DNA from: Phyllobates terribilis
Lineage: Eukaryota
Direction: 5' to 3'
DNA: 64,000 nucleotides
Assembly: GCF_046119375.1 (NCBI RefSeq)
Contig: NW_027362765.1
Span: 434,186,001-434,250,000 of the forward strand
Positions 30,473-64,000 of this stretch are shown here, one piece after another. The position numbers and the translations under genes are program-made. The notes beneath the pieces were generated by a model that was not told the DNA's origin, ran no database searches, and worked only from the letters and a program-made list of their open reading frames with translations. How positions within the stretch are numbered: the stretch's first letter is position 1; each line of letters starts with the position of its first letter.

Positions 30473-30581
30473 ACTTACAAATTTTTAACTGCATCTAGCC
30501 CACGAAATACTTTGTGCCTAGTAGCAGTGTCTGCTAGTCAGCGGATTATCCCGGCTGTTAAGCAAGCTACACCACCTGTAG

Positions 30582-39041: not shown

Positions 39042-39330
39042 TCTATTAGTCCATCTATACTAACATCCACCAGGTTGCAAATTCAATAGAATTTTTTTCT
39101 GCATCTAGCTCTGAAAAAATATTTCGGCTTGTAGCAGTGTGTGGGACTTGTTCTATTAGTCCATCTATACTAACCTCCACCAGGTTGCAAATTCAATATA
39201 ATTTTTTTCTGCTTCTAGCTCTGAAAAAATATTTTGGCTTTTAGCAGTGTGGGGGACTTGTTCTATTAGTCCATCTATACTAACCTCCACCATGATGCAA
39301 ATTCAAAATAATTTTTATCTGCATCTAACC
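39042..39330 (+). repeat. 110-bp tandem repeat, ~2.6 copies
   Basis: TCTATTAGTC at 39042, 39152 and 39262. Confidence 0.9.
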
Positions 39331-39442
39331 CAGTCAATACTATTGGGCTAATACCACAGTTTGGCCACTCAGCTCTGCTCGGTTCCCATCCATTGTTTTT
39401 TGTGCAAGCAACTCCAGAGTTATGAATTAGTTAACCATCAAA

Positions 39443-43113: not shown

Positions 43114-43959
43114 AAGCTTGACGATTTTGTAAAATCACCTCACCAACCGTTTTAAGCTTTCAAATTACTAATCATTTTTAGCTGCATCTTGTCTGGAAAA
43201 TAATTTTGGGCCTGTAGCAGTGTGCGATACTCGTTCTATTATGCCATCTATACTAAGCTCCACTAGCTTGCAAATTACTAATAATTTTTAGCTGCATCTT
43301 GTCTGGAAAATAATTGTGGGCATAGTAGCAGGGGGTGGTGCTCATTCTAACCAACCGTTTTAAGCAACTCTGGGGCAATTGATGCCACTTAAGTGGTGTC
43401 TGTGCCACAAATTTTTTTAAAAAATGGAGACTCTTTTTGGAGTTCCCTTGCTTTATTTTACGTGACGTTGCCATCGTCAATTAGAGGTGGGTTGGGTCCC
43501 CCCCCCTTTTAACTGTAAGAAACTACATACACTATGGCTTGGGGTAACACAGATGGTTGAGTCTGAAGAGGTCTCAGAGGTCTGCTCCAAAGCTTCATTG
43601 TCTGCTAGTCAGTGTAGTAACCCAGCTGCGAAGCAAGCTGCACCACCTGTGTATCTAATAATGATTTTTAAATGCATATATCCTAGGCAGACTGTGGGGA
43701 CCCCTAACCAAACCCCGACGCTCAGCCCCTTAATGCCCCCCTTTCATTGACAATACAATCATGTAACTCTTACAACTGGATGGGTGAGGATCGGTCACAG
43801 CTTTATTAACTGTTTATACTCATTCCATTAGAAATACATTTTATTTCTAAAATTCAGCTTGTTGCAGCATGCCCTGTGTCTCCAGTCTCCACAACGGCAA
43901 GTTGTCCAACAAGTGTAACTCTCCAACATGTCCTTTCTATTTCCAGGCCACGGAGGATC

Positions 43960-44400
43960 CTGCTTACTTGTATGCAGGACTCTGACCCCCATCCATCACT
44001 CTTAATGCTTGTTCCACTCCATCCTGGAGTCCTGACAAGAATATGTCCAGTCCAATATCCATTAAGTGAACACCGTCGGGCCGTATGAGGCCTGCTTTAT
44101 CTCCTTCCTGTTGTCGGTGTCGTATCACTACACAGCCTCTGTCTCTTATAAATTTTGCCATCCGAATATTTATTACCTGCCTTGTCCATTCAATGGACGT
44201 GATGTCTCACGCACCTTGCCATACCGTTCTCGGCACAATCTCTGACCACACTATAGTTAGTTTTGTGAAAAATTCCCTGAAGCGCTCAGTGTCTAGTTTC
44301 ATTATTGCCATTAGTTATGCGCTCTTGTGATAAGCTATGTCGTTTCCCCCAGCCTGTATAACTAAGATGACCGGACCTCTTGCCTCTCTCCCTACCTTGA
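43960..44400 (-). pseudogene. SGNH hydrolase fragment (DIRS/Ngaro-type retrotransposon accessory ORF)
   Basis: The minus strand reads VILVIQAGGND...IVWSEIVPRTVWQGA*...IRHRQQEGDKAGLIRPDGVHLMDIGLDIFL, which contains SGNH blocks GxND and DxxH. Contains stops. Confidence 0.65.
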
Positions 44401-45104
44401 TTACCTCCACTAGTACCTTGGCCATTGCAGGCCTCTAATACCTCTCCAGTTCAAATATGTGTTATGAAACTCCAATTTCCTCCCGCCAGGGTGGACTTTC
44501 ACCCTTCTTTCTGCACAATATATATACGAGTTCTTAATCATTGCATAGTAAAAAAACAGCAAGGAAGTGGTATTTATATGTCATGTCCTGCTATGCACCT
44601 GTTCAAGGCTGAGTTAATCAGAAATGTAAACACCCATACTATGTTAAAATCGTATAGCATAGAAACAATGCATATAAATGTAAATAATCAAAAAGAAAAA
44701 GAAAAGAAGAAAAAAGGAACATATATATAATAATAATCTATAAATGATCACTCATAATGATACAGCAAATCATCTGATGTTTAAACCCGCTGGTACACGT
44801 GTATTTAAAGTATAAATTCACCAACTTTCTCTATTACGGAGCTTTCTCCTATAATCATCCACCAAATCTCCACCAATCGCCACGGCCCACAGAGGGGCCA
44901 CCACAGTCAGTATATCCTTCCTTATTTAGTATAGAGTCTACCAATACTTTGGGCATATTAGCCCAGCTGCGAAGCCAGCTGCACCGCCTGTGTATCTAAT
45001 GAAAATTTTTAACTACATCTAGCCTAGGCAGACTGTGGGGACCCCCAACAAAACCCAGACGCTCTGCATCTAACCCAGCCAATCATTTGATAGTATTACT
45101 AGTA

Positions 45105-45369
45105 GCAGAGTCACATGGGCTCTAAACCTTGCATAGCCTGTGCATTTTTTCAGATCGCTAAGAATGACCCAACTCGTTTTATCTGTAACATTTGTCACCA
45201 AAAGCTAAGTAGAGCCAAAAAATCCATAGTTTGAGCACTTCATGCATGAACTGTCACATGGATATGAAGCATAAGTTGCAGTGCGAAGCTCACTGTGCTA
45301 CAATGCGGCCTAGCGGGCCGGGACAACCACCATCTGCCCCACCTGTGTCATGCTGGGGAGACTAAAAGC
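45105..45369 (+). pseudogene. Internally deleted hAT transposase remnant (BED region fused to the 3' end)
   Basis: CCTTGCATAGCCTG...ATCTGTAACATTTGTCA...AAGCATAAGTTGCAG joined directly to CCTGTGTCATGCTGGGGAGACTAAAAGCT, the terminal codons of the transposase. Confidence 0.8.
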
Positions 45370-46122
45370 TACCACGTAGTCTTTTCCAAAAATTTGAGTG
45401 AATTACCGCGGGAATGGTTTGGAAGAGGTATAAGAGTTTAGGTAGGACGTTAATTTTTAGTATACTTATTCTGCCGAACCAGGAAAAATCCTTCACCGTC
45501 CAAGAAGTAAGATCTTTATGGAGTTGTTCAATAATGGGCCCAAAATTAAGATAAAATAGATGGGAGAGGTCTCTATGAATACGAATTCCTAAGTATTTGA
45601 TACCCTGTGAGGGCCAGGCAAAGGGAAAGTTGGACTGGATGGAATCCTGTATGGATTTGGGGAGGGAGACATCGAGTGCCTCAGACTTCGCTGCATTGAT
45701 TTTAAAATTTGACCATGTAACAAAGTGATCTATTTCAGCCATAACAGCAGGGATGGATATATGTGATTGAGTGATATATACTAGGACATCATCGGCAAAT
45801 GCTGAGCACTTGTACTCGGTGCCTCCCACCTCAATCCACCTAATATTGGGGTTATCGCGAATTGATGAGAGCAGGTGCTCCATCTCTAGAATGTATAAGA
45901 GAGGGGACAGAGGACATCCCTGCCTTGTCCCATTGGTGATTATGAAAGGTGATGAAAATGTTCCATTTATCTTCAGCCTAGCTGACTGATTGTGATACAG
46001 GGCCATGATTTTGGCTATAAAAGGGTCCCCTAGACCCCTACCCCAAGCTTTTTAAGAGAATAATATATGGCATGCCAGGAGACTCTCTGGAATGCTTTCT
46101 CAGCATCCAACGAGAGTGTCTA
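45370..46122 (-). pseudogene. L1 RT fragment without the solo LTR (ancestral state)
   Basis: ORF 45362-46006: RLKINGTFSSPF...GTRQGCPLSPLL...FADD...KYLGI...WFGRISILKINVLPKLLYLFQ. Confidence 0.9.
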
Positions 46123-46230
46123 ATTACAAATTTTTAACTACATCTAGCCCAGGCAATACTTTGGGCCTAGTAGCAGTGTCTGCTAGTCAGCGGATTATCC
46201 CACCTGTTAAGCAAGCTACACCACCTGTAG

Positions 46231-46420
46231 TTTGGAGACTTAATTTTTTCAAAGGAAATGCTTCGGGCCCACGGGACACTCAGTGAAGAGCATTGGGGAG
46301 GCACCCCAAGTCACAGGGGCTGGGACTGGCGGTAGAACGCCTTGTGGTGGACCGCCAAGCTCGATCCTTATAAAAGCTTTTTAACTGCAGCAGCTTTAGT
46401 GGACGCTACTGGAGCTGGAA
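46231..46420 (-). rRNA. 18S-derived fragment, 3' part (downstream of the Tx1 insertion point), duplicate A
   Basis: ...TTAACTGCAGCAGCTTTAGTGGACGCTACTGGAGCTGGAA abuts the Tx1 3' end. Confidence 0.85.
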
Positions 46421-49400
46421 CTCTTTTTTTATTTTATAGAAAAAGTACAAAAACATAAAACCCCCGCAACACTCCATCAAACCCTCCCCATGTCATATAT
46501 CACCAACAATTTTCCATAACAAAAGAGAGGCTAAGCCGCCAATAAATAACACACAATATGTAAACCCAGAAACTATAACCCCCCCTATGTCATACAATAA
46601 CCAAACTGAAAAGAAATCTAAGCTGCCTTAAAAATAAGCAAGGAACGATACTAAGCATACCATGAAAGTCCCCGCTAGGTCCAGATGAAACTCTAGGTGC
46701 GGGTTCTCCATTCAGAGCCACAGGAGTCCATTGAGTCCGTAAGAGTCCTTGAGAGAGTCCAAGAGAGTCCCAGAGTCCTAGAGTCCGTGAGTCCCCACAT
46801 TAAAGTTTATGCTCGGCTCGGCTCTGCTCCGCTCCACCCCTGCTCTTTTTGCTCCTCTCCTTTGGCCTTGCTACTTTCTTATTCCCTTTCCATTAGCCTC
46901 CTTCCCGGCTCGATGTTCCATATAGGAAGACAAACAGAAAAAGGGGACCGCATTACCATACCTTCAGATCAACCACAGACAACCTTAACACACAGCCTGA
47001 AAATAAAACCTGGTCCATCACCCAACATAACATACCCAACATAAGCATAATAACCACTGTAGAAGAAAAAAAAAACAACCCTAACTGAAACTTAGAACCC
47101 TACATACACACCCATGTGTTGTTGTTTTTTTGTGTTTTTTTTTCTTATTTTTATTTTTTTTTATTTATTTGTTTTTTATTTTTATTTATTTTTATTTTTT
47201 TTCCTACTGGCATAAAATATGACATACACTAATACTACCACATGACAATATTACTACTTAAATAATTTTTTTTTTTTGCGATATCTCGGTGGGGTTTACC
47301 TTCACCCCACCTTATTACCCTACTACCCTACTGCCTTATATGGAATACCTCACAACTTAGCATAATAACTCAACAACTTAACAACATTATAACCTGACTG
47401 ACGACAATCTAACAATTACCACTTACACTTTAAGCCATGGCTCGGTGCTTGCGAGCCCCATACACCTCAGTACTTCTTGAAAACAAAAAGCTACCAGTGA
47501 AAGTTGACAGCCCACCACCGGAAAAGCAGGCACTCTCCCTGATACAAGGAAAAATATAAATATAAACCTACCTTTCCCTTACTATCTATAAAGCTATCCC
47601 TAATTTAAAAGACCTGTCCCTATCTGTCCCTCCCTGCCCCTATCGCCCTATCTACCTCACCTCGTGCCTAACTATCTTTCCCTCCTCTGTCCCTAACTGT
47701 CCCTATGAATATCTCTCCCTACTGCCTAAATACCTGCCCCTACTACTATAAAAATAAAATTAATCTGGCCCTCAAGGCACTTCAAATGAGAGACACGTTG
47801 CAGCATTCCTCATGGGGGCAACCCCGGTCATCGGAATTCCTGTACTTCAAATTGCCCCTTACATACAGCCTCCCGTGAAAGCAGCGCCAGGCCAAGTTCC
47901 AAAACTTCAAGGGGATCCGAGTAGAATTTAACAACCTCAGCCCCACCTCCAGATCCCGACCTGGGCAATCCTTGAGGGCCAGAGGCTTCTGGAAATGGGT
48001 CAACAGAACCCTCCTGTCAAGGAATTTCCTCGGCATGGTTCTGATCTCCCACATTCCCAGACTCCACCGGCGTATCACTTTCAAAACCAGGGTAGCATAA
48101 GCCGGGAGATGCCCGTGCGGTGTGCGTAGGTCCTTCACTCGCCCTCCTGACTCCCATTCCTGGAAGAAGGGTCGAAGCCATCCCCTGCAGGAGAATACCC
48201 ACGGAGGAGCCCTCTCTGGCCAGAGGTTCGCTATGTTGATTTTAAGGAAGGCATTCACTAAGAATACCACCGGGTTGACCATACCCAACCCGCCTAGTCT
48301 CCTCGTACGGTACGTGACCTCTCTTTTGACTAGGTTGAGCCTGTTTCCCCATAACATCTGAAAAAACAGGCCGTAGACCCGTGTCCAAAGAGGCTCTGGC
48401 AAAATGCAGACGCTGCCCAAATAGTTCAGCAAAGGCAGAAGGTAACCCTTGATCAGGTTCACCCGCTCCCTTAGGGTTAAAGTCCAACCCTTCCACTGGT
48501 CCACCTTTTGAGCGGCAATCTTCAGCCTGCCCTCCCAATTTAGCTGGGGGTAATCACCCGGGCCAAAATTGATGCCTAAGATCTTAGCTGTTGGTTGAGG
48601 TTCTGGGAGGGTGTCCGGGAGACCAAAACTAGGGTCTCCCCCTCCCAGCCAGAGACTCTCACACTACTCCTGGTTGATCTTAGACCCAGATGCCTCCGAG
48701 TAGCGGTCAACCTCAGACATCACCCAGTCCGCCTCCTCTTTCGAGGATACAAACAAGGAGACATCATTGGCATATGCCACTGCCCTCCAGGTGGCCTCTG
48801 GAGCCGCCTGGTCCATCCGGACTCCTGCCAACGGTCCACCCTCGATCCTCCTTAAAAAGGGGTCGATTGCGAACACGTATAACAGCGAGCTCAACGGACA
48901 GCCCTGGCGAACCCCAGCTTCCACCTCAAAAGGGCGGCCAGACCAACCAACGCTATCATAAGCCAGCCAGCCATTGGAGCCTCCCCGGTCACGTAATCTT
49001 GTGACGGTGTTGAAGTCCCCTCCAAAGACCACCTGCCGACTCGTAAAAAGATAGGGCTTGATCTTCAGGAAGAGACATTTGCGGTCCCACTTTCATTGGG
49101 GACCGTAGATGTTTATGAGCCGAAGCTCCTGTCCCCCCATGAAGACGTCTAAAACCAAGCACCTTCCCATTTCTACTTCGATAACCCTCTGGCATTCTAC
49201 CGCTGCGGTCTTATAAAGGACCGCCACCCCGCTATACGGCTCGGCCGTAAGAGACCAGTATGAGGGCCCACACCTCCACTCACTCCTTGCCTTGTGAATG
49301 GCCCCCATGTCCGTTAGTCTGGTCTCCTGCAAAAATAAAATTTCAGCCTCAAACCGGGTGAGAAAATCAAATGCCGTAAATTTAGCCGCATCTGATTTTA

Positions 49401-50683
49401 TGCTGGCAACATTAATGGACGCCAGCGTCAACGGGGTGGGTGCAGCCATTGGGTGATCGAATTAGATGGCTTTCGTCTTCCCTCCACCCCCCTCACCGTC
49501 CGACAAAGACCCCTTGCTGTCACGCTCACGGCGTTTGAGGGACACTGTCATATCCATAGAACCCCCCCTCCCCTTTCTACCTCACCCCCAGGTTCAGGGA
49601 CAGTCCCTCCCCCAGTGGAAGATGGTATACCCCCTGAGGGAAGGACTTTGCTGTCCCCCACAGGCCCCTCAGGTGGCTCCCCCAGCTCTTTGCCCTCGAC
49701 CCCCGCCACATCAGGGTCCTTGAGGACTCCAAACCGGTTGGAGACAGAGATCAGAGGGGAGATCGTGGAGCCTTCCGCCGGCACCTTGCTGGTCAGGGGG
49801 GGGGACAGATTTTTTAACCCCCTTCCCATTGATCTTCCTCTTCCTCCTTCGCCTTTTTTTGGGGTTTCACTGTCACCCTTTGCTGTAGGCTGCGCAACCT
49901 CGTCCTCCTCAACACTTTCATATTGGGAGGAATCTGAAAGCGGAGCCGCCTCCTCCCTCTCCATCCTCCTGGTCTCTTCGCTCAGCGCCTCCTCCCCCAG
50001 GGCCTCAGTGGCACCGGTCGAGACCCCTGGAGGGGGGACAGTCATCACACCAGTTGCCTGGGGATCCCCCTGCCCTTCCCCAACCAGGCGCCTCTCCTGC
50101 CTCCGATGATAAGAGGGGCCCCGGACCTTCCTGTTCTTCACTGGCCCCTCAGCCCCCTCGCTTCCACCAGCCCCAGGCTCAGCAGAGGGTGCACTGCCAG
50201 GATCCACCCCAACACGGCCACCCTCCGCCTGACCAAAGACGGCGTTGGCGAAAGAACGAGGGCAGCAACTGAACGGATGCCCGACGGCATCACACAGGTG
50301 GCACCGAACCGTACCACAGGAGGCGGCGAGATGGCATATCCCACCACACAGGGTGCATTTCTGCACCCTGCATGCTGCACTAAAGTGCGTGGGATCACCG
50401 CACCTGTGGCACACTTTCGGCTGCCCCTGGTAGAAAACCAGGATCCTGTCCCTCCCAAGGAAAGCCGAGGAAGGGATGTGGGTGACAGTGCCGCCGGACC
50501 TCTTCAACCTCATCATGAAGGTCCAGCCCCCTGACCAAATGCCCTCATCCATTATTTTTTTTGGAACCTCCACCACTTCTCCATGCCTACTGAGCCAAGT
50601 CATAATGTTGACTCCTGAAAGTGACTCATTGCATGTCAGCACGGTCACCTTCTTGGGCCCATTCTGGCGGGATATCGCCTCAG
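46421..50683 (-). mobile_element. Tx1-clade non-LTR retrotransposon, partial duplicate A (5'-truncated, 1380-bp internal deletion)
   Basis: Offset 4556 bp from copy B. The junction GACCAACCA|ACGCTATC at ~48948 removes B 53506-54885. Ends in ORF1 at CGCCTCAG (50683). Confidence 0.9.
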
Positions 50684-50786: not shown

Positions 50787-50976
50787 TTTGGAGACTTAAT
50801 TTTTTCAAAGGAAATGCTTCGGGCCCACGGGACACTCAGTGAAGAGCATTGGGGAGGCACCCCAAGTCACAGGGGCTGGGACTGGCGGTAGAACGCCTTG
50901 TGGTGGACCGCCAAGCTCGATCCTTATAAAAGCTTTTTAACTGCAGCAGCTTTAGTGGACGCTACTGGAGCTGGAA
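50787..50976 (-). rRNA. 18S-derived fragment, 3' part, duplicate B
   Basis: No differences seen versus 46231-46420. Confidence 0.85.
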
Positions 50977-52327
50977 CTCTTTTTTTATTTTATAGAAAAA
51001 GTACAAAAACATAAAACCCCCGCAACACTCCATCAAACCCTCCCCATGTCATATATCACCAACAATTTTCCATAACAAAAGAGAGGCTAAGCCGCCAATA
51101 AATAACACACAATATGTAAACCCAGAAACTATAACCCCCCCTATGTCATACAATAACCAAACTGAAAAGAAGGCTAAGCTGCCTTAAAAATAAGCAAGGA
51201 ACGATACTAAGCATACCATGAAAGTCCCCGCTAGGTCCAGATGAAACTCTAGGTGCGGGTTCTCCATTCAGAGCCACAGGAGTCCATTGAGTCCGTAAGA
51301 GTCCTTGAGAGAGTCCAAGAGAGTCCCAGAGTCCTAGAGTCCGTGAGTCCCCACATTAAAGTTTATGCTCGGCTCGGCTCTGCTCCGCTCCACCCCTGCT
51401 CTTTTTGCTCCTCTCCTTTGGCCTTGCTACTTTCTTATTCCCTTTCCATTAGCCTCCTTCCCGGCTCGATGTTCCATATAGGAAGACAAACAGAAAAAGG
51501 GGACCGCATTACCATACCTTCAGATCAACCACAGACAACCTTAACACACAGCCTGAAAATAAAACCTGGTCCATCACCCAACATAACATACCCAACATAA
51601 GCATAATAACCACTGTAGAAGAAAAAAAAAACAACCCTAACTGAAACTTAGAACCCTACATACACACCCATGTGTTGTTGTTTTTTTGTGTTTTTTTTTC
51701 TTATTTTTATTTTTTTTTATTTATTTGTTTTTTATTTTTATTTATTTTTATTTTTTTTCCTACTGGCATAAAATATGACATACACTAATACTACCACATG
51801 ACAATATTACTACTTAAATAATTTTTTTTTTTTGCGATATCTCGGTGGGGTTTACCTTCACCCCACCTTATTACCCTACTACCCTACTGCCTTATATGGA
51901 ATACCTCACAACTTAGCATAATAACTCAACAACTTAACAACATTATAACCTGACTGACGACAATCTAACAATTACCACTTACACTTTAAGCCATGGCTCG
52001 GTGCTTGCGAGCCCCATACACCTCAGTACTTCTTGAAAACAAAAAGCTACCAGTGAAAGTTGACAGCCCACCACCGGAAAAGCAGGCACTCTCCCTGATA
52101 CAAGGAAAAATATAAATATAAACCTACCTTTCCCTTACTATCTATAAAGCTATCCCTAATTTAAAAGACCTGTCCCTATCTGTCCCTCCCTGCCCCTATC
52201 GCCCTATCTACCTCACCTCGTGCCTAACTATCTTTCCCTCCTCTGTCCCTAACTGTCCCTATGAATATCTCTCCCTACTGCCTAAATACCTGCCCCTACT
52301 ACTATAAAAATAAAATTAATCTGGCCC

Positions 52328-55300
52328 TCAAGGCACTTCAAATGAGAGACACGTTGCAGCATTCCTCATGGGGGCAACCCCGGTCATCGGAATTCCTGTA
52401 CTTCAAATTGCCCCTTACATACAGCCTCCCGTGAAAGCAGCGCCAGGCCAAGTCCCAAAACTTCAAGGGGATCCGAGTAGAATTTAACAACCTCAGCCCC
52501 ACCTCCAGATCCCGACCTGGGCAATCCTTGAGGGCCAGAGGCTTCTGGAAATGGGTCAACAGAACCCTCCTGTCAAGGAATTTCCTCGGCATGGTTCTGA
52601 TCTCCCACATTCCCAGACTCCACCGGCGTATCACTTTCAAAACCAGGGTAGCATAAGCCGGGAGATGCCCGTGCGGTGTGCGTAGGTCCTTCACTCGCCC
52701 TCCTGACTCCCATTCCTGGAAGAAGGGTCGAAGCCATCCCCTGCAGGAGAATACCCACGGAGGAGCCCTCTCTGGCCAGAGGTTCGCTATGTTGATTTTA
52801 AGGAAGGCATTCACTAAGAATACCACCGGGTTGACCATACCCAACCCGCCTAGTCTCCTCGTACGGTACGTGACCTCTCTTTTGACTAGGTTGAGCCTGT
52901 TTCCCCATAACATCTGAAAAAACAGGCCGTAGACCCGTGTCCAAAGAGGCTCTGGCAAAATGCAGACGCTGCCCAAATAGTTCAGCAAAGGCAGAAGGTA
53001 ACCCTTGATCAGGTTCACCCGCTCCCTTAGGGTTAAAGTCCAACCCTTCCACTGGTCCACCTTTTGAGCGGCAATCTTCAGCCTGCCCTCCCAATTTAGC
53101 TGGGGGTAATCACCCGGGCCAAAATTGATGCCTAAGATCTTAGCTGTTGGTTGAGGTTCTGGGAGGGTGTCCGGGAGACCAAAACTAGGGTCTCCCCCTC
53201 CCAGCCAGAGACTCTCACACTACTCCTGGTTGATCTTAGACCCAGATGCCTCCGAGTAGCGGTCAACCTCAGACATCACCCAGTCCGCCTCCTCTTTCGA
53301 GGATACAAACAAGGAGACATCATTGGCATATGCCACTGCCCTCAAGGTGGCCTCTGGAGCCGCCTGGTCCATCCGGACTCCTGCCAACGGTCCACCCTCG
53401 ATCCTCCTTAAAAAGGGGTCGATTGCGAACACGTATAACAGCGAGCTCAACGGACAGCCCTGGCGAACCCCAGATTCCACCTCAAAAGGGCGGCCAGACC
53501 AACCATTCACCAGCGGGAAAGTCTCAGCCCCTGCATACAATGCCTTTAACCAATTTACGAACCCCCCGGGCAGACCGTACCTCAAAAGGACAGACCAGAG
53601 GTAGTCGTGGTTCACCCGATCAAACGCCTTTGCCTGATCTAGGGACAGCAGAAACCCCTTCCAGAGTCCAGCCCTACCCTACTCCACTGCCTCCCGGACA
53701 CCGAGTACAGCACTAAATGTGCTGCGGCCTGGAACAGAGCAATGCTGGGACCCGGAAAGGAGCCGGGGCGCAAATTTCACCAGCCGATTAAAGAGCACCC
53801 TTGCCAGAACCTTCCAGTCCGTATTGAGAAGCGCTATTTGACGCCAGTTCTCAATACGGGACGAGTCCTTACCCTTTGACAGGATAATCAGGGCAGACCT
53901 CCTCATTGAACGGGGAAGAGCACCCGAGGAAAGGCACTCGTTGAACACCTCCGTCAAGAGGGGGACCAAGGAGTACCTAAAGGTCTTATAAAATTCAGAC
54001 GTTAAGCCGTCTGGACCTGGCGATTTCTTGAGCAAAAGCCCATCAATGGCCAGTCTCACTTCCTCTCCCCTGATTGCCTCAGTCAAAGCGCTGAGAGAGG
54101 GGTCATCCCCTGGCTCAGGAACGGCTTCGGCCAGGAAAGTCGACGTCACGTCTCGATCTAGTTCCGTCTTTCCCAAGAGGCGTGAGTAGAACGACCTGAT
54201 GACTTCCAGGATCCCTGATTTGGATCTGTTCAGGGAACCTATACTATCGATCAGGCCGGTCACTACTTTACGATTCACTGACATCTTACAGTTTCTGTAG
54301 GGGTCAGGCGAGCGGTACTTCCCGAAATCCCTCTCAAAAACCAAAGATGTGTGTCTATCATACTGACTCCTCTTGAGCAAAGACTTCACTCTGGAGATCT
54401 CCTCACGGTCACCTCCAGTCGAGACAAGCTGTTCGAGTTTCCTCCTCAGGCTCTGGTACAGGCGGTACCTGCTCAGGCTCCTGAGGCTAGAGAGCTGGCG
54501 GAAGAAACTCGCAACCCGATCTTTGAACATCTCCCACCACTCAGACTTAGTGCTACACAGATCCAACAGCGGTACCTGGCTCTGAAGAAAATCCTCAAAG
54601 GATTGTCTCACCTCCGCTTCTTCCAGCAGTGACGAATTCAGCTTCCATAGTCCTCTCCCCATCCGGGGGGTTTCTGAAACATTCAAGGAAAAGAAAATTA
54701 GACAGTGATCGGAGAATTCCACCTCCACAGCGGACACTGCTGAAGAGACGGCCTCCTCCTTTAAAAAAAACCTGTCTATTCTAGACCTACAACTACCCCT
54801 ATAATAGGTGAAACCACTGTGACCTGGGGTGTGCCGGATGTGTACATCCACCAGGCGAGCATCACTAGCTATGCTATTCAGAGTCACGCTATCATAAGCC
54901 AGCCAGCCATTGGAGCCTACCCGGTCACGTAATCTTGTGACGGTGTTGAAGTCCCCTCCAAAGACCACCTGCCGACTCGTAAAAAGATAGGGCTTGATCT
55001 TCAGGAAGAGACATTTGCGGTCCCACTTTCATTGGGGACCGTAGATGTTTATGAGCCGAAGCTCCTGTCCCCCCATGAAGACGTCTAAAACCAAGCACCT
55101 TCCCATTTCTACTTCGATAACCCTCTGGCATTCTACCGCTGCGGTCTTATAAAGGACCGCCACCCCGCTATACGGCTCGGCTGCAAGAGACCAGTATGAG
55201 GGCCCACACCTCCACTCACTCCTTGCCTTGTGAATGGCCCCCATGTCCGTTAGTCTGGTCTCCTGCAAAAATAAAATTTCAGCCTCAAACCGGGTGAGAA

Positions 55301-55385
55301 AATCAAAGGCCGTAAATCTAGCCGCATCTGATTTTATGCTGGCAACATTAATGGACGCCAGCGTCAACGGGGTGGGTGCAGCCAT
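52328..55385 (-). pseudogene. Tx1 ORF2 (AP endonuclease, RT, zf-RVT) with nonsense mutations
   Basis: SINVASIK...FLQET...GGDFN...SRIDRF...SDH; KKSPGPDGLTSEFY; DQAKAFDRVNH; QGCPLS; YANDVS (YADD mutated); LAWRCFHGRL...RGCP. Three in-frame stops and a C-terminal deletion before SFEVP*. Confidence 0.92.
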
Positions 55386-55399
55386 TGGGTGATCGAATT

Positions 55400-58300
55400 A
55401 GATGGCTTTCGTCTTCCCTCCACCCCCCTCACCGTCCGACAAAGACCCCTTGCTGTCACGCTCACGGCGTTTGAGGGACACTGTCATATCCATAGAACCC
55501 CCCCTCCCCTTTCTACCTCACCCCCAGGTTCAGGGACAGTCCCTCCCCCAGTGGAAGATGGTATACCCCCTGAGGGAAGGACTTTGCCGTCCCCCACATG
55601 CCCCTCAGGTGGCTCCCCCAGCTCTTTGCCCTCGACCCCCGCAACATCAGGGTCCTCGAGGACTCCAAACCGGTTGGAGACAGAGATCAGAGGCGAGATC
55701 GTGGAGCCTTCCGCCGGCACCTTGCTGGTCAGGGGGGAGACAGATTTTTTAACCCCCTTCCCATTGATCTTCCTCTTCCTCCTTCGCCTTTTTTTGGGGT
55801 TTCACTGTCACCCTTTGCTGTAGGCTGCGCAACCTCGTCCTCCTCAACACTTTCATATTGGGAGGAATCTGAGAGCGCAGCCGCCTCCTCCCTCTCCATC
55901 CTCCTGGTCTCTTCGCTCAGCGCCTCCTCCCCCAGGGCCTCAGTGGCACCGGTCGAGACCCCTGGAGGGGGGACAGTCATCACATCAGTTGCCTGGGGAT
56001 CCCCCTGCCCTTCCCCAACCAGGCGCCTCTCCTGCCTCCGATGATAAGAGGGGCCCCGGACCTTCCTGTTCTTCACTGGCCCCTCAGCCCCCTCGCTTCC
56101 ACCAGCCCCAGGCTCAGCAGAGGGTGCACTGCCAGGATCCACCCCAACACGGCCACCCTCTGCCTGACCAAAGACGGCGTTGGCGAAAGAACGAGGGCAG
56201 CAACTGAACGGATGCCCGACGGCATCACACAGGTGGCACCGAACCGTACCACAGGAGGCGGCGAGATGGCCTATCCCACCACACAGGGTGCATTTCTGCA
56301 CCCTGCATGCTGCACTAAAGTGCGTGGGATCACCGCACCTGTGGCACACTTTCGGCTGCCCCTGGTAGAAAACCAGGATCCTGTCCCTCCCAAAGAAAGC
56401 CGAGGAAGGGATGTGGGTGACAGTGCCGCCGGACCTCTTCAACCTCATCATGAAGGTCCAGCCCCCTGACCAAATGCCCTCATCCATTATTTTTTTTGGA
56501 ACCTCCACCACTTCTCCATGCCTACTGAGCCAGGTCATAATGTCGACTCCTGAAAGTGACTCATTGCATGTCAGCACGGTCACCTTCTTGGGCCCATTCT
56601 GGCGGGATATCGCCTCAGCGACGAGACCCCACCAACCGGGCGTCTCCTTTGCCAGCTCGTAGTTCGACGAAAAAAGCTCCATGCCCTCCGGCCGAACAAA
56701 GCTAACATCAAAGATGGGGGTGCCAAAAGGATGTATCAGGGCAAAGATGTCATTCGCCCTGAAACCCATCTCCAGGAGGAGCTTCACCACCCTTGATCTT
56801 GATGGGCACGCATCATCACCCCTCCACCGGAGACGGACCACATTCCTCCTGGACTCCCCCCGCCCGGCTGTAGGGAGAGACCATACAGTCTCTCCCCCCC
56901 TTTTCTCTTGGAAGGCGGCCTGTCCGAATTTGTCCAACCAAAAAGACAGGTCCACATCCCTCCCCTCTACTGAGATCGTCCGATCCCCACGCCTCAGGGC
57001 CTGCACGAGACCGCGATAGAAATCTCCGTCTCCTGAGCCTGAAGGTGAGGAAGACCCCACCACAGCCCCAGAAAAATTCAAAACATTGCCTGCAGGGGGC
57101 GATGGACCGGCCCCCCCACTGTCACCACTCACCCCTCTTGTATCACCTCTCACATTGCCCCCCCCCTGGCAGGGCTGGCCATTCCTCCATTTCTATACAC
57201 TCCCCATTCTCTCCAATCACACTTCCACCTAAACCCTCATCCACACCATGCGTTTTTTCCCCTCCCCCCATATTATTCACACCCTGCGTTCTCCCTGCTC
57301 CACTTACAGGTGCAGCCCCTTTCTCTGCTCTTCCCTTGCCGGTGTTGTTACTTCCTGGACTTTTGCTTGGGAGATTCTGGCTGGTTGCCGCTTTAAGATT
57401 TTTCTCGCGTACTGCCACTTTAAGGGATTCACAGCCACTGCTGGAAATAGGTACACCCAGCTTTCCAGCAGAGCATGCAGCAGCAACAGCCAGCTCAGCA
57501 GCAGAACATTCCTCCTGCACTCCATGCTGCAGGACATCGAGCCCTGAGGGAGCAGCCACTGCCGAGGACCCTGCCGACCCAGGTGACAAAATGCCAACAG
57601 GGGACCCCGAAGGTGCGACCCCCCCCCCACCCTGTGGCTGGGGGCGGGACTTCCATGTTTACTACTTTGGATGTTTTTGATGTTATTTTCACCTCATTTG
57701 CACTGCACATGTCCTTTACTTTAACCGGCACCGGGGTCCCTGCCACCACAGGTGGTACAAGGCTGGCAGGAGACCCTGGCAGCACCGCACCCCCTGCCGG
57801 GGTTGCAATCAGGGACGCGGCCAGCTGTGTTGCCACGGTTTTAACTCTTAAGCTCCCGCCCTTACATATTGTCGGCGCCGAGGCCCCTGCGGCCCCAGAT
57901 TGTGGCAGGCACACAGGGGACCCCGGAAACACCGCCCCCACCGCCGGTGGTGCGGTCCGGGACACGGCCGGCTGTACCTCAGCCACGACACTCCTCTCGC
58001 CCTTTGATGTTACCGGCGCCAAGGCCCCCGCAGCCCCAGGTGGAAGCGGGCTCACAGGAGGCCCCGGCTGGCCGGCCCCCACTGCCGAGGGTGCGGGCGG
58101 GGGTAGGATGGCGGCGGCTATCACGGCCGACCCCTTGCTCTCACTAGTTGGCCCCAGGGCCCCCGCAGACCCAGTAGATGACACACTTGCCAGGGACCCC
58201 GGCAGCACAACCTCCCCCACCAAGGTGGGGTCGCGGGTCAGCCGGACCTCCGGCACCATCCTCATGTTAGGTCCCTTTCCCCCATCCATGCTACGATCAG

Positions 58301-59332
58301 CATGGATGGTAGCCTTCACCGTGATTACATTTCTCTTCCCGCCCCCTTGCACTTGGCCCACACCAGAACCCAGGCCGGGGTGGGTAGTGGGCACATAGTG
58401 GGACCGGGGGATCCCAGGAAGGGGGACATAGACAAGTTTTTCCTCCATTCTGATCTTATTCTAACCTTTTTTATTCCTCCCTTTCCCAGTTGCCTCTTCC
58501 AGGCAGCCCTCCTCCCCAAATGTAAGCTGGGAGAAATCCACTCCCGGGGACTCGAGCTGCCGGATCTGGCGCATGAGTCAACCCCCCTTGCTACCACTGT
58601 CACTACTCCCATCATCATCCTCCACACTGCTGGCATCCGATGGGAGCGCGACTTGGTGATGATCTAATTGCCCACTATGTGTGACCTGGTGATCACTTAC
58701 CAGGTCCCCCCAGGCAGGCTGTCCGGCTTCTCCTCCTCCATAGCAGATTCCCCAGCCTCCTCCTCCTCTGCCTGGGTCGAGCGGCCAGACCCCTCTAGCG
58801 CCCCTCTGGCGGCGGTGGTGGTGGTAGTGGTTATTCCCAAGAACCTCTCATCGTTGTCAAGTTTCTCTTGGAAGGGACCGGCATTAGCCTGAATCTCTTG
58901 CTTCCTCTTCTGCAAGGCCTTTATTGAGCTTTTCAGCTCCTTTACTTTAGCTGACAGGGCCAAGCTAGGGCCACGAGATGCGCTGTTTGCTGCTAGCTGA
59001 GCACACCGCAGCTCCTCCCGAAGCCGCCTCAAGGTCTTTATGGCTTCCCCGTGTTCACTGAGGTACATGTCCAGGCGAGAGCCGAAGGTGGAAGTTGGCT
59101 CCCCCTCAGCCTGGACACCCCAGTCCTTATGGACGGCCATTGTACTCCGGCAAGCACCAGGCTCTTCCCCAGGAGGAGAGATCTGTCCCACTTGCGGCCC
59201 GGCTACGGCCCCGGCTGGTACCCTGCCGCTCCTCTTTGCCTGTTTAGCCTCCTTGGCCTTAGCCTCCATCGCTCTCACATCTTTGGCTTTTCCTTCCTTG
59301 GCCTTTTTGGCCTTAGAGGTGCTGCCTTTCAT
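55400..59332 (-). pseudogene. Tx1 ORF1 (~1300 codons, frameshifted; coiled coil, low-complexity spacer, ZCCHC3-like RRM/CCHC module)
   Basis: Successive ORFs 58697-59332, 58325-58636, 57495-58448, 57143-57589 and 55729-57153. RRNVVRLRW...FDVSF...CHRCGDPTHFSAAC..CTLCGGIGHLAASC..CHLCDAVGHPFSCC. Confidence 0.75.
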
Positions 59333-59581
59333 TGTAGGGGCTCAGTACAAAATAAAGTCACCATAAAGTTCAAAAATAAAGTCCAAAAACAGGACTCCCA
59401 CCCCCGGTATAAACCGAGGGGTGGAAGACGGGGACAAGCCCCACTGCTGTCCTCAACCACCCTCCCTCTCCTGGATCCAAGAGGGGGGGGTCCTTCCAGG
59501 TGAAAAACAAGCCTCACGGCCCAGGAGCTCTTCAGTCCACCACCTCTCTCCTCAGCTGCAGTCCACACACTGACACACCCA

Positions 59582-59668
59582 GGAATTACCGCAGCTGCTG
59601 GCATCAGACTTGCCCTCCAATAGATCCTTGTAAATGGATTTAAAGTGTACTCATTCAAATTACAGAGA
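59582..59668 (-). rRNA. 18S-derived fragment, 5' part (upstream of the Tx1 insertion point)
   Basis: The minus strand reads CTGTAATTTGAATGAGTACACTTTAAATCC...GGATCTATTGGAGGGCAAGTCTGATGCCAGCAGCTGCGGTAATTCC. Confidence 0.9.
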
Positions 59669-59938
59669 CAATTTAAATTAAAGAGCTTAGACCTGCCTCC
59701 ACCGCAGGGGGGCTCGCTCGACCCACCAGCGGACAGGCACCAGAATTGGGAGAAGGGGGCTGGCCGTCATGGTCCACCGCAGCTCTGGCACAAACCCGGC
59801 GACACGGAGGTCGCATGGGCAGGAACGGACTGGCCGTGTCAGCTTCGCACTTTTTTGGTTTTAGAAGGGCATGACATGCCCTTATCTGTGTCTCCCCCTC
59901 CTTTTACTCCTCCACCTCTTTTCTTTTCGCGTGACTAT

Positions 59939-62101
59939 TAGTGTTGAGCGAGCACTAAAATGCTCGGGTGCTCGAAGCTCGGGCCGAGCTCGCCGTGATA
60001 CTCGGGTGCTCGACCCGAGCAACGAGCCCAATGTTAGTCTATGCGAGACTCGAGCATTTTTGCGGTGGCACCCCCGGCAGTCTTTTAAAAGCCTAACAAG
60101 TGCCCAAAACGATAGTGACAGTGCTCAAATGACATGGGGACAGCATGGGGATCGCCCCAGGAAGCATTTCTGACCCCAAGGTCACTGCTGTCAACAACGT
60201 GGTCAGAGGTATTAAGCCACTTTTACAGGCTCACAATAAAACGAAAGTGAAACTTTTTTCCTGTGAAATATGTTAAGGAACATCCTTTCCAGGGAAAAGA
60301 CTTGTGTATAAGTTAAAATAAATGACCATAAACAAAAATACTCCTCCACACCTTCGGCTATGTTCACAAGTAGCATTTTTTATGCGTTTTTGCACTTTTG
60401 TATTGCTTTCAACTATGACAAATGCATTCACCGGGAAATGTCATTTTAACATTTTACAACCTTATCTGGCCATGTGCTGTGTGACACATGCATAAAGTGC
60501 TGAAAAGACATGGGAACAGCATGGGGAAGACCCCTGGAAGCATCTCTGACTCCCAGGTCACTGTCTAAAAGTGTGCCCATCATAAGTGATCCTTGCCGCA
60601 TCAGAAGATGCAGACTTGCAACTACCCCCATGCAAGTTCTAGTCCCAGGGCAGTGTTCAATTGTACCTCCCCCATTCCTTGCAATACAAGCGCAAGTATG
60701 CAGCCTACCACCCACCCACCCCCAGGCTGCAATACCATACTGCTTGCTTGCTTGAACTTGAAATTGGGCCTTTAAGGCATGTGGAGGCGGAATCTGGCCA
60801 CCACGTCATGGCTGTGTTGGCGGCCTGGAATTCATACTCAGTCCCCAGCCGCCCGGCGGACGGGTGTCCATACTCAGTCCCCAGCCGCCCCGCGGCCGAG
60901 TGTCCACACGGTCCCCAGCCGCCTGGGGACAGTCGGGTGTCCATAAACTGTCCCCAGCCGCCCCCATTTCTCCTTGGAACATCCCCCCACACACTTTTCT
61001 TAGCCCGGCCTGCTTTAGGCAGCATTGGACGAGCCCACCAGAGAACCAGACTCCTCCGGTGGGCCATGACTTCTCCATCGGTGGAGTTGAGAGTGCCAAG
61101 GTGAGGAGCATGATGATGATGACAGAATTTAGCATCTGCTATGTTTTCTTTTAATGCAAGTGTAAGTGTGCAGCCTGCAACCCACCCACCCCCAGACTGC
61201 AATTCATACTGCTAGCTTGCACTTGAAATGGGGCCTTTTAGTTTAGAGGAGGCCGAAGCTGGCCACTACCTCATGGCTGCTTCGACAGCGAGGTATCCAT
61301 ACTCAGTCCCCAGCCGCCCCTATTTGTCCTAGTGTGCCTTATACATAAGATTAAGCGCGTATACCAAAGCATTACCTGTGCCCTCCCCAGTGCATTTAGT
61401 GGGAAGGAGAGCCTATTCCGCTGTAGTGTGTGCATGCCGAACCCCTGTTCATGGTACATGCGAAGATGCCTCCCACCTTGCACCTGTCATTGCAGACTTG
61501 CAACTATCCCCATTCAAGTCCTTGTCCCAGGGCAGTGTTCAATTGTACCTCTCCCATTCCTTGCAATGCAAGCGCAAGTATGCAGCCTGCCACCCACCCA
61601 CCCCCAGGCTGCAATACCATACTGCTTGCTTGCTTTCACTTTAAATTGGGCCTTTTAGGCATGTGGAGGCGGAATCTGGCCACCACGCCATGGCTGTGTC
61701 GGCGGCCTGGTATCCATACTCAGTCCCCAGCCGCCTGGTTGCCGGGTGTCCCCGCTTGCTCCCCAGCCTCCAGGGGGTGGCCGGGTGTCCATACTCGGTC
61801 CCCAGCCACCCCTATTTGTACCGGTAACCTTTCCCACAATTTTCTTAGCCTGGCCTGCTTTAGGGCAGCATTGGCCGAGCCCACCGGACTATCAGACTCC
61901 TCCAGTGGGCCCTGGCTTCTCCATCAGGGGAGTTGAGAGTGCCAAGGTGAGGAGCATGATGAGGATGATAGAAGTTAGCATCTGCTTTGTTTTGTTGTAA
62001 TGCACGCGCATGTATGTAGTAGCGGCTAGGCCTGAGGAGGTCAGCGTTTTGGCGCAAATCCTACCTCCTCCGAGGATTGCTGGATGTTTTCCTGCTACTA
62101 T
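59939..62101. mobile_element. Non-autonomous hAT-type element of another family, nested in the right end of copy 3
   Basis: Starts TAGTGTTGAGCG with CTCG/CGAG-rich subterminal repeats. Interrupts copy 3 after GTGACTAT. No coding capacity seen. The other end is not in the window. Confidence 0.7.
60590..62000 (+). repeat. Imperfect ~880-bp duplication with internal ~30-bp repeats
   Basis: GCAGACTTGCAACTA at ~60611 and ~61492. CCATACTCAGTCCCCAGCCGCC is repeated at 60830-60965, ~61295 and 61710-61810. Confidence 0.75.
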
Positions 62102-62603
62102 TAGTGTTGAGCCACCCCCGTAGTGTTCGAGTTCGGTTCGGTTCGTCGAACACCCGTGTGTTCGCCGAACTGTTCGTCGAACTGTTCGTCGAACACCTTC
62201 GAACACCGTTAAAACCAATGGCAGGCAAACAAAAACACATAGAAACACATAGAAAACACCTTCAAAGGTGTCCAAAAGCTGACAAACTGCTCAGAAGACA
62301 CAACTAACACATGGAAAAGTGACAAGTACATATAGTCATGCGAAAAGAAAAGAGGTGGAGGAGTAAAAGGAGGGGGAGACACAGATATAGGCATGTCATG
62401 CCCTTCTAAAATCCAAAAAGTGAGAAGCCGAGACGGCCAGTCCGCTCCTGCCCGTGCCACCTCCGTGTCGCCGGGTTTGTGCCAGAGCCGCCGTGAACCC
62501 TGACGGCCAGCCCCCCTCTCCCAATACTGGTGCCTGTCCGCTGGTGGGTCGAGAGAGCCCCCCTGTGGTGGAGGCAGCTCTAAGCTTTTTAATTTAAATT
62601 GTC

Positions 62604-62872
62604 CCTCTAATTTGAATGAATACACTTTAAATCCATTTACAAGGATCTATTGGAGGGCAAGTTTCATGCCAGCAGCCGCGTAATTCCAGCTCCAGTAGCG
62701 TCCACTAAAGCTGCTGCAGTTAAAAAGCTTTTATAAGGATCGAGCTCGGCTGTCCACCGCAAGGCATCCTAGTGCCAGTCCCAGCCCCTATGCCTTGGGG
62801 TGCCTCCTGATGCTCTTCACTAAGTATCCCGTGGTCCCGAAGCATTTCCTTTGAAAAAATTAAGTGTCCAAA
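62604..62872 (+). rRNA. 18S rRNA-derived fragment (degenerate) inside hAT copy 4
   Basis: Same fragment as 7075-7343. Confidence 0.9.
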
Positions 62873-63143
62873 CTACAGGTGGTGTAGCTTGCTTAACAGC
62901 CGGGATAATCCGCTGACTAGCAGACACTGCTACTAGGCACAAAGTATTTCCTGGGCTAGATGCAGTTAAAAATTTGTAAGTAGATACTCTCGTTGGATGC
63001 TGAGAAAGCATTCCATAGAGTCTCCTGGCACGCCATATATGATTCTCTTAAAAAGCTTGGGGTAGGGGTCTAGGGGACCCTTTTATAGCCAAAATCACGG
63101 CCCTGTATCACAATACGTCACCTAGGCTGAAGATAAATGGAAC

Positions 63144-64000
63144 TGTAGCACCGAGGGCTCGGTTGCTACAGATGTATTGCACCTCACCCAGAGGTGTGAT
63201 ATCTCACTCTCAGATAAGGATGGAGTGTGGATCAGGACCCGACACCTGCATGCATTACACCACATTGCCGTGGGGCAGGGCGACCAATATGCCCCTGAGA
63301 TGGGCACGACAGTCCCTGTCCCTGGCTGGAGTGGGGGGAGGGAACACTGAGGAAGGGGAACCCTGCAGTGCAGGAGCAGGGAGGAAGCAGTTCCTGGGTG
63401 CATTGAGAAGGGAGTATAAAAGGTGGGCACCATCTTAGTTCAGTGCAGAGAAGTCTGAGCAGAAGTGGCAGGGAGCAGGGGCTCTGCATGAGCTCTGCTC
63501 CGGAGGCGGGCCTAGTAACAGAGGCCCAGGCCTGCAAGAGGGAGAAGGAAGGAAGAGGAGCGGAGAAGGCTCCTGGAACGAGGAATGAAGGGATCCCAGG
63601 GGTGCGGACGGGCGAGTCGCCACCGCACGCCCGAATCCACCTGCGTGGAGGGGTCAGGCCAAAGGGGGAGACCGGTCCCCGAACTAGTGGAGGCAGGAAA
63701 CGACCCTCAGCTAGAAACCGGAGGCTCTGACATTTTATGTGGCGCAGCCCCTTGCTCCACCCGCTAGGAAGGCACCACATAGGGTCAGGGAAACTGGCGC
63801 CAAGTTTACCAAGAGGAGGCCCGAGGCAGCCGGACAGAAGTGTTGGTAAGAAAGGCCAGACAAAGGACACACAAAGGGGGTCCTGTGAAGCGCTCCAAAG
63901 TTATCTGGGAGTTGTCTGAGCCCCTCACCTGGTGAGCACAGTACGACGTGGGCAGCCGTTACCTGCAGACGTGGTCTGGATAATAAGAACTGTGAGTAAA
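63144..64000 (+). mobile_element. Solo LTR inside hAT copy 4 (partial)
   Basis: GAAC|TGTAGCACC at 63140-63152, the same insertion point as in copies 1 and 2. Confidence 0.85.

What the first reader, a model, noticed from the sequence alone, without database searches (positions are those of the whole stretch)
59570..59620. Only the hAT copy that retains GCGGTAATTCC was hit: a mobile landing-pad or hyperparasite model
Seen: copies 1, 2 and 4 have a 1-bp deletion (GCCGCG-TAATTCC) immediately upstream of the insertion point and are uninterrupted. Copy 3 keeps the canonical GCGGTAATTCC and carries the Tx1. Inference: the hAT disperses rDNA target sites that an rDNA-specific retroelement colonises, letting it leave the rDNA array and hitch-hike, echoing the Xenopus Tx1L-in-Tx1D arrangement. 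The deletion in the younger subfamily could be an escape variant. With n=4 and non-independent copies this is only suggestive.
Basis: inference. Interest (0 to 1): 0.7.

Follow-up and report, generated by a model that had tools for sequence, protein, structure and literature searches.

The report
Frog LINE nested in rRNA-carrying transposon
A frog retrotransposon sits inside a scrap of ribosomal RNA gene carried by a very common DNA transposon, and so far it has been seen only in the version of that transposon that kept the original target letters, but neither an origin in real rRNA genes nor an escape mutation is shown.

Summary
In detail: hAT copies 1, 2 and 4 read GCCGCG-TAATTCC and are empty; copy 3 keeps GCGGTAATTCC and holds an 8.6-kb Tx1-type LINE with a 4-bp duplication (TTCC), inside an 18S-rRNA-derived segment. 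But 1, 2 and 4 are one young subfamily (0.8-2.6% apart) and copy 3 lies about 7% away, so the window gives 2 lineages, not 4 tests. Contigs of four public runs add: empty GG sites are common (occupied share of GG-class depth about 3%); the LINE subfamily appears multi-copy and its main 3' contig runs into this flank; a second, different occupied copy has a hAT-type flank and, by gap arithmetic, the GG allele. No occupied deletion allele and no insertion in a true rRNA gene was seen, but the tables were cut. Other passengers (solo LTR, Tc1-like) have hitch-hiked in this hAT. Best reading: a transposon-targeting Tx1-type LINE (like Tx1L or Tx1-Mar) whose site is captured rRNA sequence. 'rDNA-specific' is unsupported; 'escape variant' is open; hitch-hiking of one insertion is not excluded.

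The parts
59582..59592 (-). GCGGTAATTCC, the GG allele upstream of the LINE in hAT copy 3; the GG is 59589-59590
59582..59585 (-). 5' copy of the 4-bp target duplication TTCC
   Evidence: joint 50972->59582 with 4 letters fitting both sides
50973..50976 (-). 3' copy of the duplication TTCC, after the A-rich end ATAAAATAAAAAAAGAG
59580..59677 (-). 18S rRNA-like segment upstream of the insertion (Rfam RF01960 positions about 478-594, E 7e-10, below gathering score)
59582..59938 (-). 5' part of hAT copy 3 (7.0-7.6% substitutions from copies 1, 2, 4)
50977..59581 (-). Tx1-type LINE, 8,605 bp, same sense as the 18S segment, coding frames broken
58697..59341 (-). upstream open frame of the LINE (214 aa stop to stop, no Pfam match)
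55729..57192 (-). ORF1 core: two ZCCHC3-like RNA-binding domains and a weak CCHC knuckle match
52338..55385 (-). ORF2: AP-type endonuclease plus reverse transcriptase; 3 internal stops and an early end
54674..58700 (-). probable intron of a LINE transcript (GTAAGT ... pyrimidine tract-CAG, 4,027 nt); removes ORF1 core and the endonuclease
   Evidence: joint 54674->58708 in runs X7 and X10 only; motifs
46128..50683 (-). later tandem duplication of the LINE 3' part plus hAT flank, with an internal deletion
38125..46420 (-). rest of hAT copy 3: downstream 18S-like segment, RT fragment, broken BED-finger hAT transposase (opposite strand), right end
6573..16335 (+). hAT copy 1, 8-bp duplication GTCTATAG, open 1,233-aa transposase frame; empty deletion allele at 7146-7158
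21004..31352 (-). hAT copy 2, 8-bp duplication TTTACCAA; empty deletion allele at 30767-30779
62102..64000 (+). hAT copy 4 (cut by the window end); empty deletion allele at 62675-62687
7615..8828 (+). solo-LTR-like passenger (TG...CA, 4-bp duplication GAAC) shared by copies 1, 2, 4, absent from copy 3
9350..10725 (+). Tc1-like passenger shared by copies 1 and 2 (98.9%), absent from copy 3
   Evidence: (HTH_Tnp_Tc3_2, E 2.5e-4, below cut-off)
59939..62101 (+). another element starting TAGTGTTGAGC that interrupts the left arm of copy 3
   Evidence: other copies run on normally here (loose end 59938)

Best explanation
A frog Tx1-type LINE lineage prefers one site inside a high-copy hAT family, and that site happens to be a captured piece of 18S rRNA gene. 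Steps: (1) an ancestral hAT took up an 18S segment (shown by similarity; capture inferred). (2) The LINE endonuclease nicks the antisense strand at GGAA/TTAC and the other strand 4 nt away, giving the TTCC duplication (duplication shown; nick positions inferred from target-primed reverse transcription). (3) It inserted more than once at this point in GG-class hAT copies, filling only a few per cent of them (multi-copy state and shared flank supported by contig depth; independence of the insertions inferred). (4) A younger hAT subfamily that had lost one G, among about 7% other changes, then expanded; it has not been seen occupied. Whether the lost G blocks the enzyme or merely marks the subfamily is not settled; the hAT, not the rDNA array, is the only habitat seen.
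For: Clean insertion with TSD in the same sense as the 18S segment. One unbranched contig carries the LINE 3' UTR into TTCCAGCTCCA at the depth of the element interior: 183 against 145-176 in X1, 108 against 79-88 in X5 (table 8); its last letter in X1 (50965) is the hAT letter, where the Rfam consensus differs. X7 record 28 spans the 5' junction into hAT-only letters (to 59680), differs from the window at 27 of 973 places, and has the same gap count and net length as X10 record 14 which stops short of the site, so no extra gap: 2 of 2 readable 5' junctions are GG. Depth falls from 3' to 5' in both DNA runs (183, 176, 159, 145; 108, 88, 79), as 5' truncation of separate insertions would give. 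Empty GG-class joints: depth 6,753 (X1) and 3,191 (X5). Precedent: Tx1 families aimed at DNA transposons (PMC4494074, passages and sections read).
Against: No 5'-truncated copy at this site appears among the 15 joints shown (38 more not shown). A single insertion multiplied by the hAT would also give one shared flank, and this hAT demonstrably carries passengers. Depth is not copy number (tool's own warning) and the 3'-to-5' slope rests on 4 and 3 contigs. The GG call for record 28 is indirect. The LINE RNA may start in the hAT (record 28), so the 5' flank allele could be copied from a donor. The flanks of the more abundant related subfamilies (summed depth 3,910 at 50996, tens of thousands over ORF2) could not be read.
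Confidence: 0.5

Rival explanations
1. Hitch-hiking only: one LINE insertion, specific or not, landed in a GG-class hAT and was multiplied by hAT transposition or segmental duplication. The allele link is then pure ancestry.
For: Shared 3' flank and the same 5' junction in the two full-length copies seen. About three quarters to four fifths of the 3' depth persists near the 5' end (145/183, 79/108). Copies 1 and 2 carry the same solo LTR and Tc1-like inserts at loci with different 8-bp duplications. A change of some kind within 20 bp of any site is expected with probability 0.77 between these subfamilies.
Against: Monotone 3'-to-5' fall in depth in both DNA runs. The composite would exceed 20 kb. 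In the crocodilian case the same rival was tested with truncated copies and rejected (PMC4494074 section 14).
Confidence: 0.27
2. One reading: the LINE is an 18S-rDNA-specific element, the hAT is a mobile landing pad that lets it leave the array, and the one-base deletion is an escape variant that helped the young subfamily spread.
For: The site lies in the best-conserved block of the segment and the LINE is in rRNA sense. The deleted G is 4-5 nt from the inferred nick, inside the 7 flanking nucleotides marked for Tx1L endonuclease sites (PMC1950540 passage). Ages overlap: the window's LINE is 1.1% from the main DNA contigs (17 of 1,493) while copies 1, 2, 4 differ by 0.8-2.6%, and the family seems still transcribed, so lack of opportunity does not plainly explain the empty young copies. 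One of only 2 indels in 818 bp falls at the site (chance about 0.05, post hoc). A second empty class has TTCC changed to TTAC (depth 2,535 and 1,116). Tx1-group Mutsu subfamilies discriminate 5S variants (PMC5340908 passages).
Against: No LINE junction with rRNA-gene letters was seen; both main junctions are hAT-type. About 97% of GG-class depth is empty, so selection for escape would be weak. Copy 3 itself departs from the rRNA consensus near the site (GCT for GCC, TGAT for TGGT).
Confidence: 0.15
3. The family is weakly specific (short TTCC/GGAA preference, as in Tx1 groups that enter TTCC or TTC microsatellites) and only this small subfamily is tied to the hAT, for instance because its master copy is transcribed from inside the hAT and carries flank with it.
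For: The duplication is only TTCC; crocodilian Tx1 groups prefer (TTCC)n/(TTTC)n (PMC4494074). Record 28 joins 99 nt of hAT to the first exon. Related subfamilies are far deeper than this one and their flanks are unread.
Against: No microsatellite at the site. Copy 3 is diverged from the young subfamily on both sides and in its transposase, so flank transfer does not explain this locus.
Confidence: 0.08

Closest known systems
Xenopus laevis Tx1L inserted in the DNA transposon Tx1D
   Same: AP-endonuclease LINE at a fixed site inside a DNA transposon of a frog (PMC4494074 and PMC1950540 passages).
   Different: Host here is a hAT with an open transposase frame, not a non-autonomous piggyBac; target is 18S-derived; duplication 4 bp (a much longer one is recalled for Tx1L, not checked). 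No direct sequence comparison with Tx1L was made.
Crocodilian Tx1-Mar (in Mariner-N4_AMi) and Tx1-9_AMi (about 300 bp inside Harbinger 5' ends)
   Same: Tx1 families preferring a position inside an abundant DNA transposon; the hitch-hiking rival was raised and tested there with truncated copies.
   Different: Their targets are not described as rRNA-derived in the sections read; no escape allele is described there.
Mutsu (5S rRNA-specific, zebrafish)
   Same: L1/Tx1-group LINE in an rRNA sequence; subfamilies discriminate target variants (PMC5340908 passages).
   Different: Mutsu sits in real 5S genes; here only a transposon-borne 18S fragment is seen occupied.
R7Ag (Anopheles, R1 clade) and R8 (Hydra, R2 lineage), 18S rDNA-specific
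   Same: 18S sequence as target (PMC7265360 and PMC5035012 passages).
   Different: Other clades, invertebrate hosts, inserted in real rDNA. Whether the nucleotide position is the same could not be checked (paper not held).
Pokey (Daphnia piggyBac)
   Same: DNA transposon that carries rDNA-derived sequence (IGS) (PMC3315735 passage).
   Different: Pokey itself targets 28S; no nested LINE target described in the passages read.

Membership tests
hAT superfamily (host element) | short terminal inverted repeats and 8-bp target duplication | tested here: met
   ends TAGTGTTGAGC / TAGAGATGAGC; GTCTATAG and TTTACCAA duplications for copies 1 and 2
hAT superfamily (host element) | transposase with BED finger and hAT dimerisation domain | tested here: met
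   PF02892 and PF05699 above cut-off in copies 1, 2, 3
L1/Tx1 group LINE | ORF1 plus ORF2 with AP endonuclease and reverse transcriptase, A-rich 3' end, target duplication | tested here: met
   nearest solved structure of the relative P0002 is human L1 ORF2 (E 2e-74)
Tx1 clade proper | RT groups with named Tx1 families (Tx1L, Keno, Mutsu) | tested here: inconclusive
   homologues are frog, turtle, coelacanth and fish RT proteins without family names; the clade label rests on recalled architecture (CCHC-type ORF1, about 1,130-aa ORF2)
rDNA-specific retroelement | copies found at one site in real rRNA genes | tested here: inconclusive
   both main junction contigs are hAT-type; one true-18S contig end seen (X10, 59667) of unknown occupancy; human-like contigs are filtered and tables cut
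transposon-targeting Tx1 (Tx1L / Tx1-Mar type) | more than 20% of copies flanked by the same transposon (criterion in PMC4494074) | tested here: inconclusive
   for this subfamily the main 3' contig runs into the site at full depth in 2 of 2 DNA runs, but copies could not be counted and related subfamilies not read
transposon-targeting Tx1 (Tx1L / Tx1-Mar type) | independent insertions (5'-truncated copies at the same site) | tested here: inconclusive
   depth slope only; no truncated junction among 15 of 53 joints shown
transposon-targeting Tx1 (Tx1L / Tx1-Mar type) | endonuclease nicks the target specifically | not testable with these tools
   needs an in vitro assay
co-mobilised composite (hAT + LINE) | composites at several loci with different 8-bp duplications | not testable with these tools
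   no genome held; shown only for other passengers

The most novel reading that the evidence does not exclude
A vertebrate Tx1-type LINE that recognises the conserved 18S sequence just after the 530 loop has moved, partly or wholly, from rDNA onto a hAT that captured this target; the hAT multiplies the landing sites and supplies upstream transcription, and hAT subfamilies with changes at the nick site (lost G; TTCC to TTAC) out-spread the susceptible form: an arms race between two transposons fought on a borrowed rRNA fragment.
Probability: 0.15. Interest if true: 0.8.

Novelty: new variant of a known kind. Interest (0 to 1): 0.47.

Why it matters
Tx1 LINEs that live inside DNA transposons are known, and so are LINEs specific for rRNA genes. 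A case in which the transposon's target is itself captured rRNA would offer a route for the switch between the two kinds of target, and the natural GG and G alleles give a ready test of whether a transposon can evolve resistance to a nested parasite. Ten searches of the held library listed no report of an 18S-targeting Tx1 in a vertebrate or of a hAT carrying an 18S segment; the library lacks most subscription papers and Repbase entries, so this is weak.

Tried and rejected
Genome-wide 2x2 table: no genome is held. Metagenome scan for an A-rich tail joined to the 18S site: 3 loci, none with rRNA or RT similarity, chance matches. Viral contigs with P0002: no relative. Earlier scan notes: 0 in 3 look-ups. 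No RNA holder is on record among the 22 runs listed; X7 and X10 look like RNA only because of the splice-like joint. Two protein searches gave no named Tx1 family. The second near-match to the motif (45399, 1 mismatch) and the third (54312) are within chance and not in 18S-like sequence. The second 3' junction as an independent insertion: rejected, it is a duplication. That the 3' contigs stop 11-12 nt into the flank because of a G/A fork between hAT and rDNA: considered, but the two runs stop at different letters and a merge of tail variants explains it as well. An RNA-gene head or ribozyme at the LINE 5' end: no Rfam match at E <= 1 in 59400-59950 other than 18S and one noise hit. Share of the GG class among all hAT copies: not determined; three upstream markers give 0.3-2.7% and one downstream 4.9-7.5% for copy-3 letters, but these may be private to copy 3, and the listed joints alone give similar depth for both classes. 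Supplements of PMC4494074, which list flanks and may name frog Tx1 targets, could not be read.

Full report
Setting. The window is a nest of transposons from a frog; the closest named relatives of the LINE protein are anuran. No whole genome is held, so evidence beyond the window comes from one lay of four public contig sets.

The four hAT copies. Copy 1 (6573-16335, +) and copy 2 (21004-31352, -) are complete, with ends TAGTGTTGAGC and TAGAGATGAGC and 8-bp duplications GTCTATAG and TTTACCAA. Copy 4 starts at 62102 and runs off the window. Copy 3 lies on the minus strand from 59938 to a right end at 38125; its left arm is interrupted at 59939 by another element. Copies 1-3 encode BED-finger hAT transposases, open over 1,233 aa in copy 1 and broken in copies 2 and 3. 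About 0.5 kb inside the left end each carries an 18S rRNA-like segment (Rfam RF01960, 3 hits above the gathering score; alignments); similarity is strong over model positions about 510-630 and resumes near 750-780.

The observation. Confirmed: one exact GCGGTAATTCC at 59582-59592 and three exact GCCGCGTAATTCC in the other copies. The LINE occupies 59581-50977 in the same sense as the 18S segment; its 5' end follows ...GGTAATTCC and its 3' end ATAAAATAAAAAAAGAG is followed by TTCCAGCTCC, a 4-bp duplication. It has ZCCHC3-like RNA-binding domains in ORF1 and an endonuclease-RT ORF2 with three stops and an early end. The second 3' junction at 46420 belongs to a later tandem duplication (99.8% over 2,822 bp including hAT flank). 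Copy 3 is not wholly canonical (GCT for GCC three bases upstream of the motif's GG block).

The confound. Copies 1, 2 and 4 differ by 0.8-2.6% around the site; copy 3 differs from them by 6.3-7.6% on both sides and by about 5% in the transposase. In 3 of the 4 substitutions in the upstream 18S-like 92 bp, and at the gap, copy 3 has the letter nearer to 18S (two substitutions and the gap against the Rfam consensus; the third, at the edge of the segment, from recall), so it is the more ancestral form. The window thus holds two lineages. Some difference within 20 bp of any point is expected with probability 0.77; that one of only two indels falls there has a post hoc probability near 0.05.

Public contigs (runs X1, X5, X7, X10 from four studies, 4 of 22 listed; tables cut: 15 of 53 joints, 24 of 974 loose ends, 32 of about 30,700 pieces shown). 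(a) Empty GG sites exist: joint 50972->59582 with four shared letters, depth 4,218 in 8 contigs (X1) and 1,775 in 6 (X5); a GG-class variant with TTCC changed to TTAC adds 2,535 and 1,116; X7 has a matching loose end. (b) Empty deletion sites appear in all four runs as joints, and as the best supported loose ends (24 and 15 contigs at 50976). The deletion type seems the majority, but its share is not measured: copy-3 letters make up 0.3-2.7% of depth at three upstream markers and 4.9-7.5% at one downstream marker, which may be private changes, while the listed joints alone are of similar depth for the two classes (6,753 against 5,331; 3,191 against 4,838). (c) The LINE subfamily looks multi-copy: its main contigs have depth 145-183 in X1 and 79-108 in X5 while contigs of depth 15-18 exist in both, and the window copy differs from them at 17 of 1,493 places in X1. 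The tool warns that depth is no copy number. (d) In both DNA runs one contig runs from the 3' UTR across the tail into TTCCAGCTCCA at the depth of the interior; in X1 it ends on a match at 50965, the first letter where the hAT (G) differs from the Rfam consensus (A). (e) X7 record 28 spans the 5' junction and continues to 59680, through letters that are hAT-specific (a true 18S contig in X10 is clipped at 59667). It differs from the window at 27 of 973 places. It has 10 gap letters and net +8, exactly as X10 record 14, which ends before the site, and X7 and X10 give equal counts in neighbouring pieces (35 and 20 against 35 and 20); hence no further gap, that is the GG allele. This is an inference from counts, not a read of the letters. 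So 2 of 2 readable 5' junctions are GG, in hAT. (f) Occupied share of GG-class depth is about 2.6% (X1) and 3.3% (X5): GG is far from sufficient. (g) An occupied deletion allele would be hidden under the 5% listing threshold; its absence from the tables is no evidence. (h) Related subfamilies are much deeper (3,910 at 50996; tens of thousands over ORF2) and their flanks were not displayed.

Hitch-hiking. Shown for other passengers: a 1,214-bp solo-LTR-like insert with a GAAC duplication is shared by copies 1, 2 and 4, and a 1,376-bp Tc1-like insert by copies 1 and 2, which lie at loci with different 8-bp duplications; copy 3 has the empty LTR site. Not shown for the LINE. Depth falls from 3' to 5' in both DNA runs (183, 176, 159, 145; 108, 88, 79), a weak sign of separate, partly truncated insertions.

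Timing. The LINE copy is 1.1% from the main DNA contigs and 1.8% from the X10 contigs, in the same range as the spread of the deletion subfamily. A splice-like joint seen only in X7 and X10 matches a GTAAGT donor at 58700 and a pyrimidine-CAG acceptor at 54674, which suggests the family is still transcribed. Lack of opportunity therefore does not plainly explain the empty young copies, which keeps the escape idea alive. The same record 28 would be the first exon joined to 99 nt of hAT; if transcripts start in the hAT, the allele seen upstream of an occupied site could come from the donor, so a genome-wide table must type the subfamily from both flanks.

Mechanism. Most likely (0.5) a site-preferring LINE that uses the hAT-borne 18S motif as its target, with the allele link real but of unsettled cause.

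Comparison with what is known. PMC4494074 (abstract, passages, the second half of Results and section 14 read; supplements unavailable) describes Tx1L in Tx1D, Tx1-Mar in Mariner-N4 and Tx1-9_AMi in Harbinger, and tests hitch-hiking with truncated copies. PMC5340908 (passages) shows Mutsu subfamilies discriminating 5S variants. PMC5035012 and PMC7265360 (passages) name R8 and R7Ag as 18S-specific; their exact sites were not seen. PMC1950540 (passages) shows specific nicking by the Tx1L endonuclease. PMC3315735 (passages) notes rDNA-derived sequence in Pokey. PMC8869645 and PMC6719617 (passages) gave background only. Christensen 2000 and Nichuguti 2016 were seen only as reference titles. The element works like Tx1L or Tx1-Mar; its membership of the Tx1 clade and of rDNA-specific elements was not established here. 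The rRNA origin of the target is the new feature; ten searches listed no such case, in a library that lacks Repbase and most subscription papers.

Verdict. Real feature, new variant of a known kind, interest 0.47.

Noticed in passing
window 58700-54674 (-): Probable 4,027-nt GT-AG intron in the LINE RNA, seen as a joint in runs X7 and X10 only; the acceptor falls at ORF2 codon 238, just after the endonuclease domain, so the spliced form would lack ORF1 core and endonuclease. Frame of the fusion not determined.
   Followed up: partly
window 50973-50976 equivalent, joint 50973->59584: A second empty hAT class keeps GG but has TTCC changed to TTAC, inside the duplication itself (depth 2,535 in X1, 1,116 in X5).
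   Followed up: no
window 7155-7215 versus 50916-50976: The 61 bp just downstream of the site are identical in copies 1 and 3 although the subfamilies differ by about 7% (chance about 0.01, post hoc).
   Followed up: no
window 7615-8828 and 9350-10725: Solo-LTR-like and Tc1-like passengers carried by the young hAT subfamily, which also holds an RT fragment (8829-9279); a cargo-rich hAT with an open transposase frame.
   Followed up: partly
window 37372, 38125, 59939, 62102: Serial nesting: copy 3 sits in the right arm of an older copy (end at 37372), is interrupted by a hAT-like element at 59939, in or after which copy 4 lies.
   Followed up: partly
window 20984-21004 and 37364-37372: Two hAT copies are inserted 19 bp apart at the equivalent place of a duplicated 3-kb unit (17745-20803 / 33900-36959), a possible local hot spot.
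   Followed up: no
window 57237-57272: All four runs show a 36-bp tandem repeat here in the LINE that the window copy lacks.
   Followed up: no
window 50996 and 59411: Depth 10-20 times that of this subfamily at the LINE's extreme 3' end and near its 5' end points to more abundant related subfamilies with conserved termini; their targets are unread.
   Followed up: no
window 21920-23086: Tandem array of about 110-bp units between transposase and right end, longer in copy 2 than in copies 1 and 3.
   Followed up: no
window 3435-3959 (+): Open frame with a weak integrase-core match (E 2e-7, just under cut-off).
   Followed up: no
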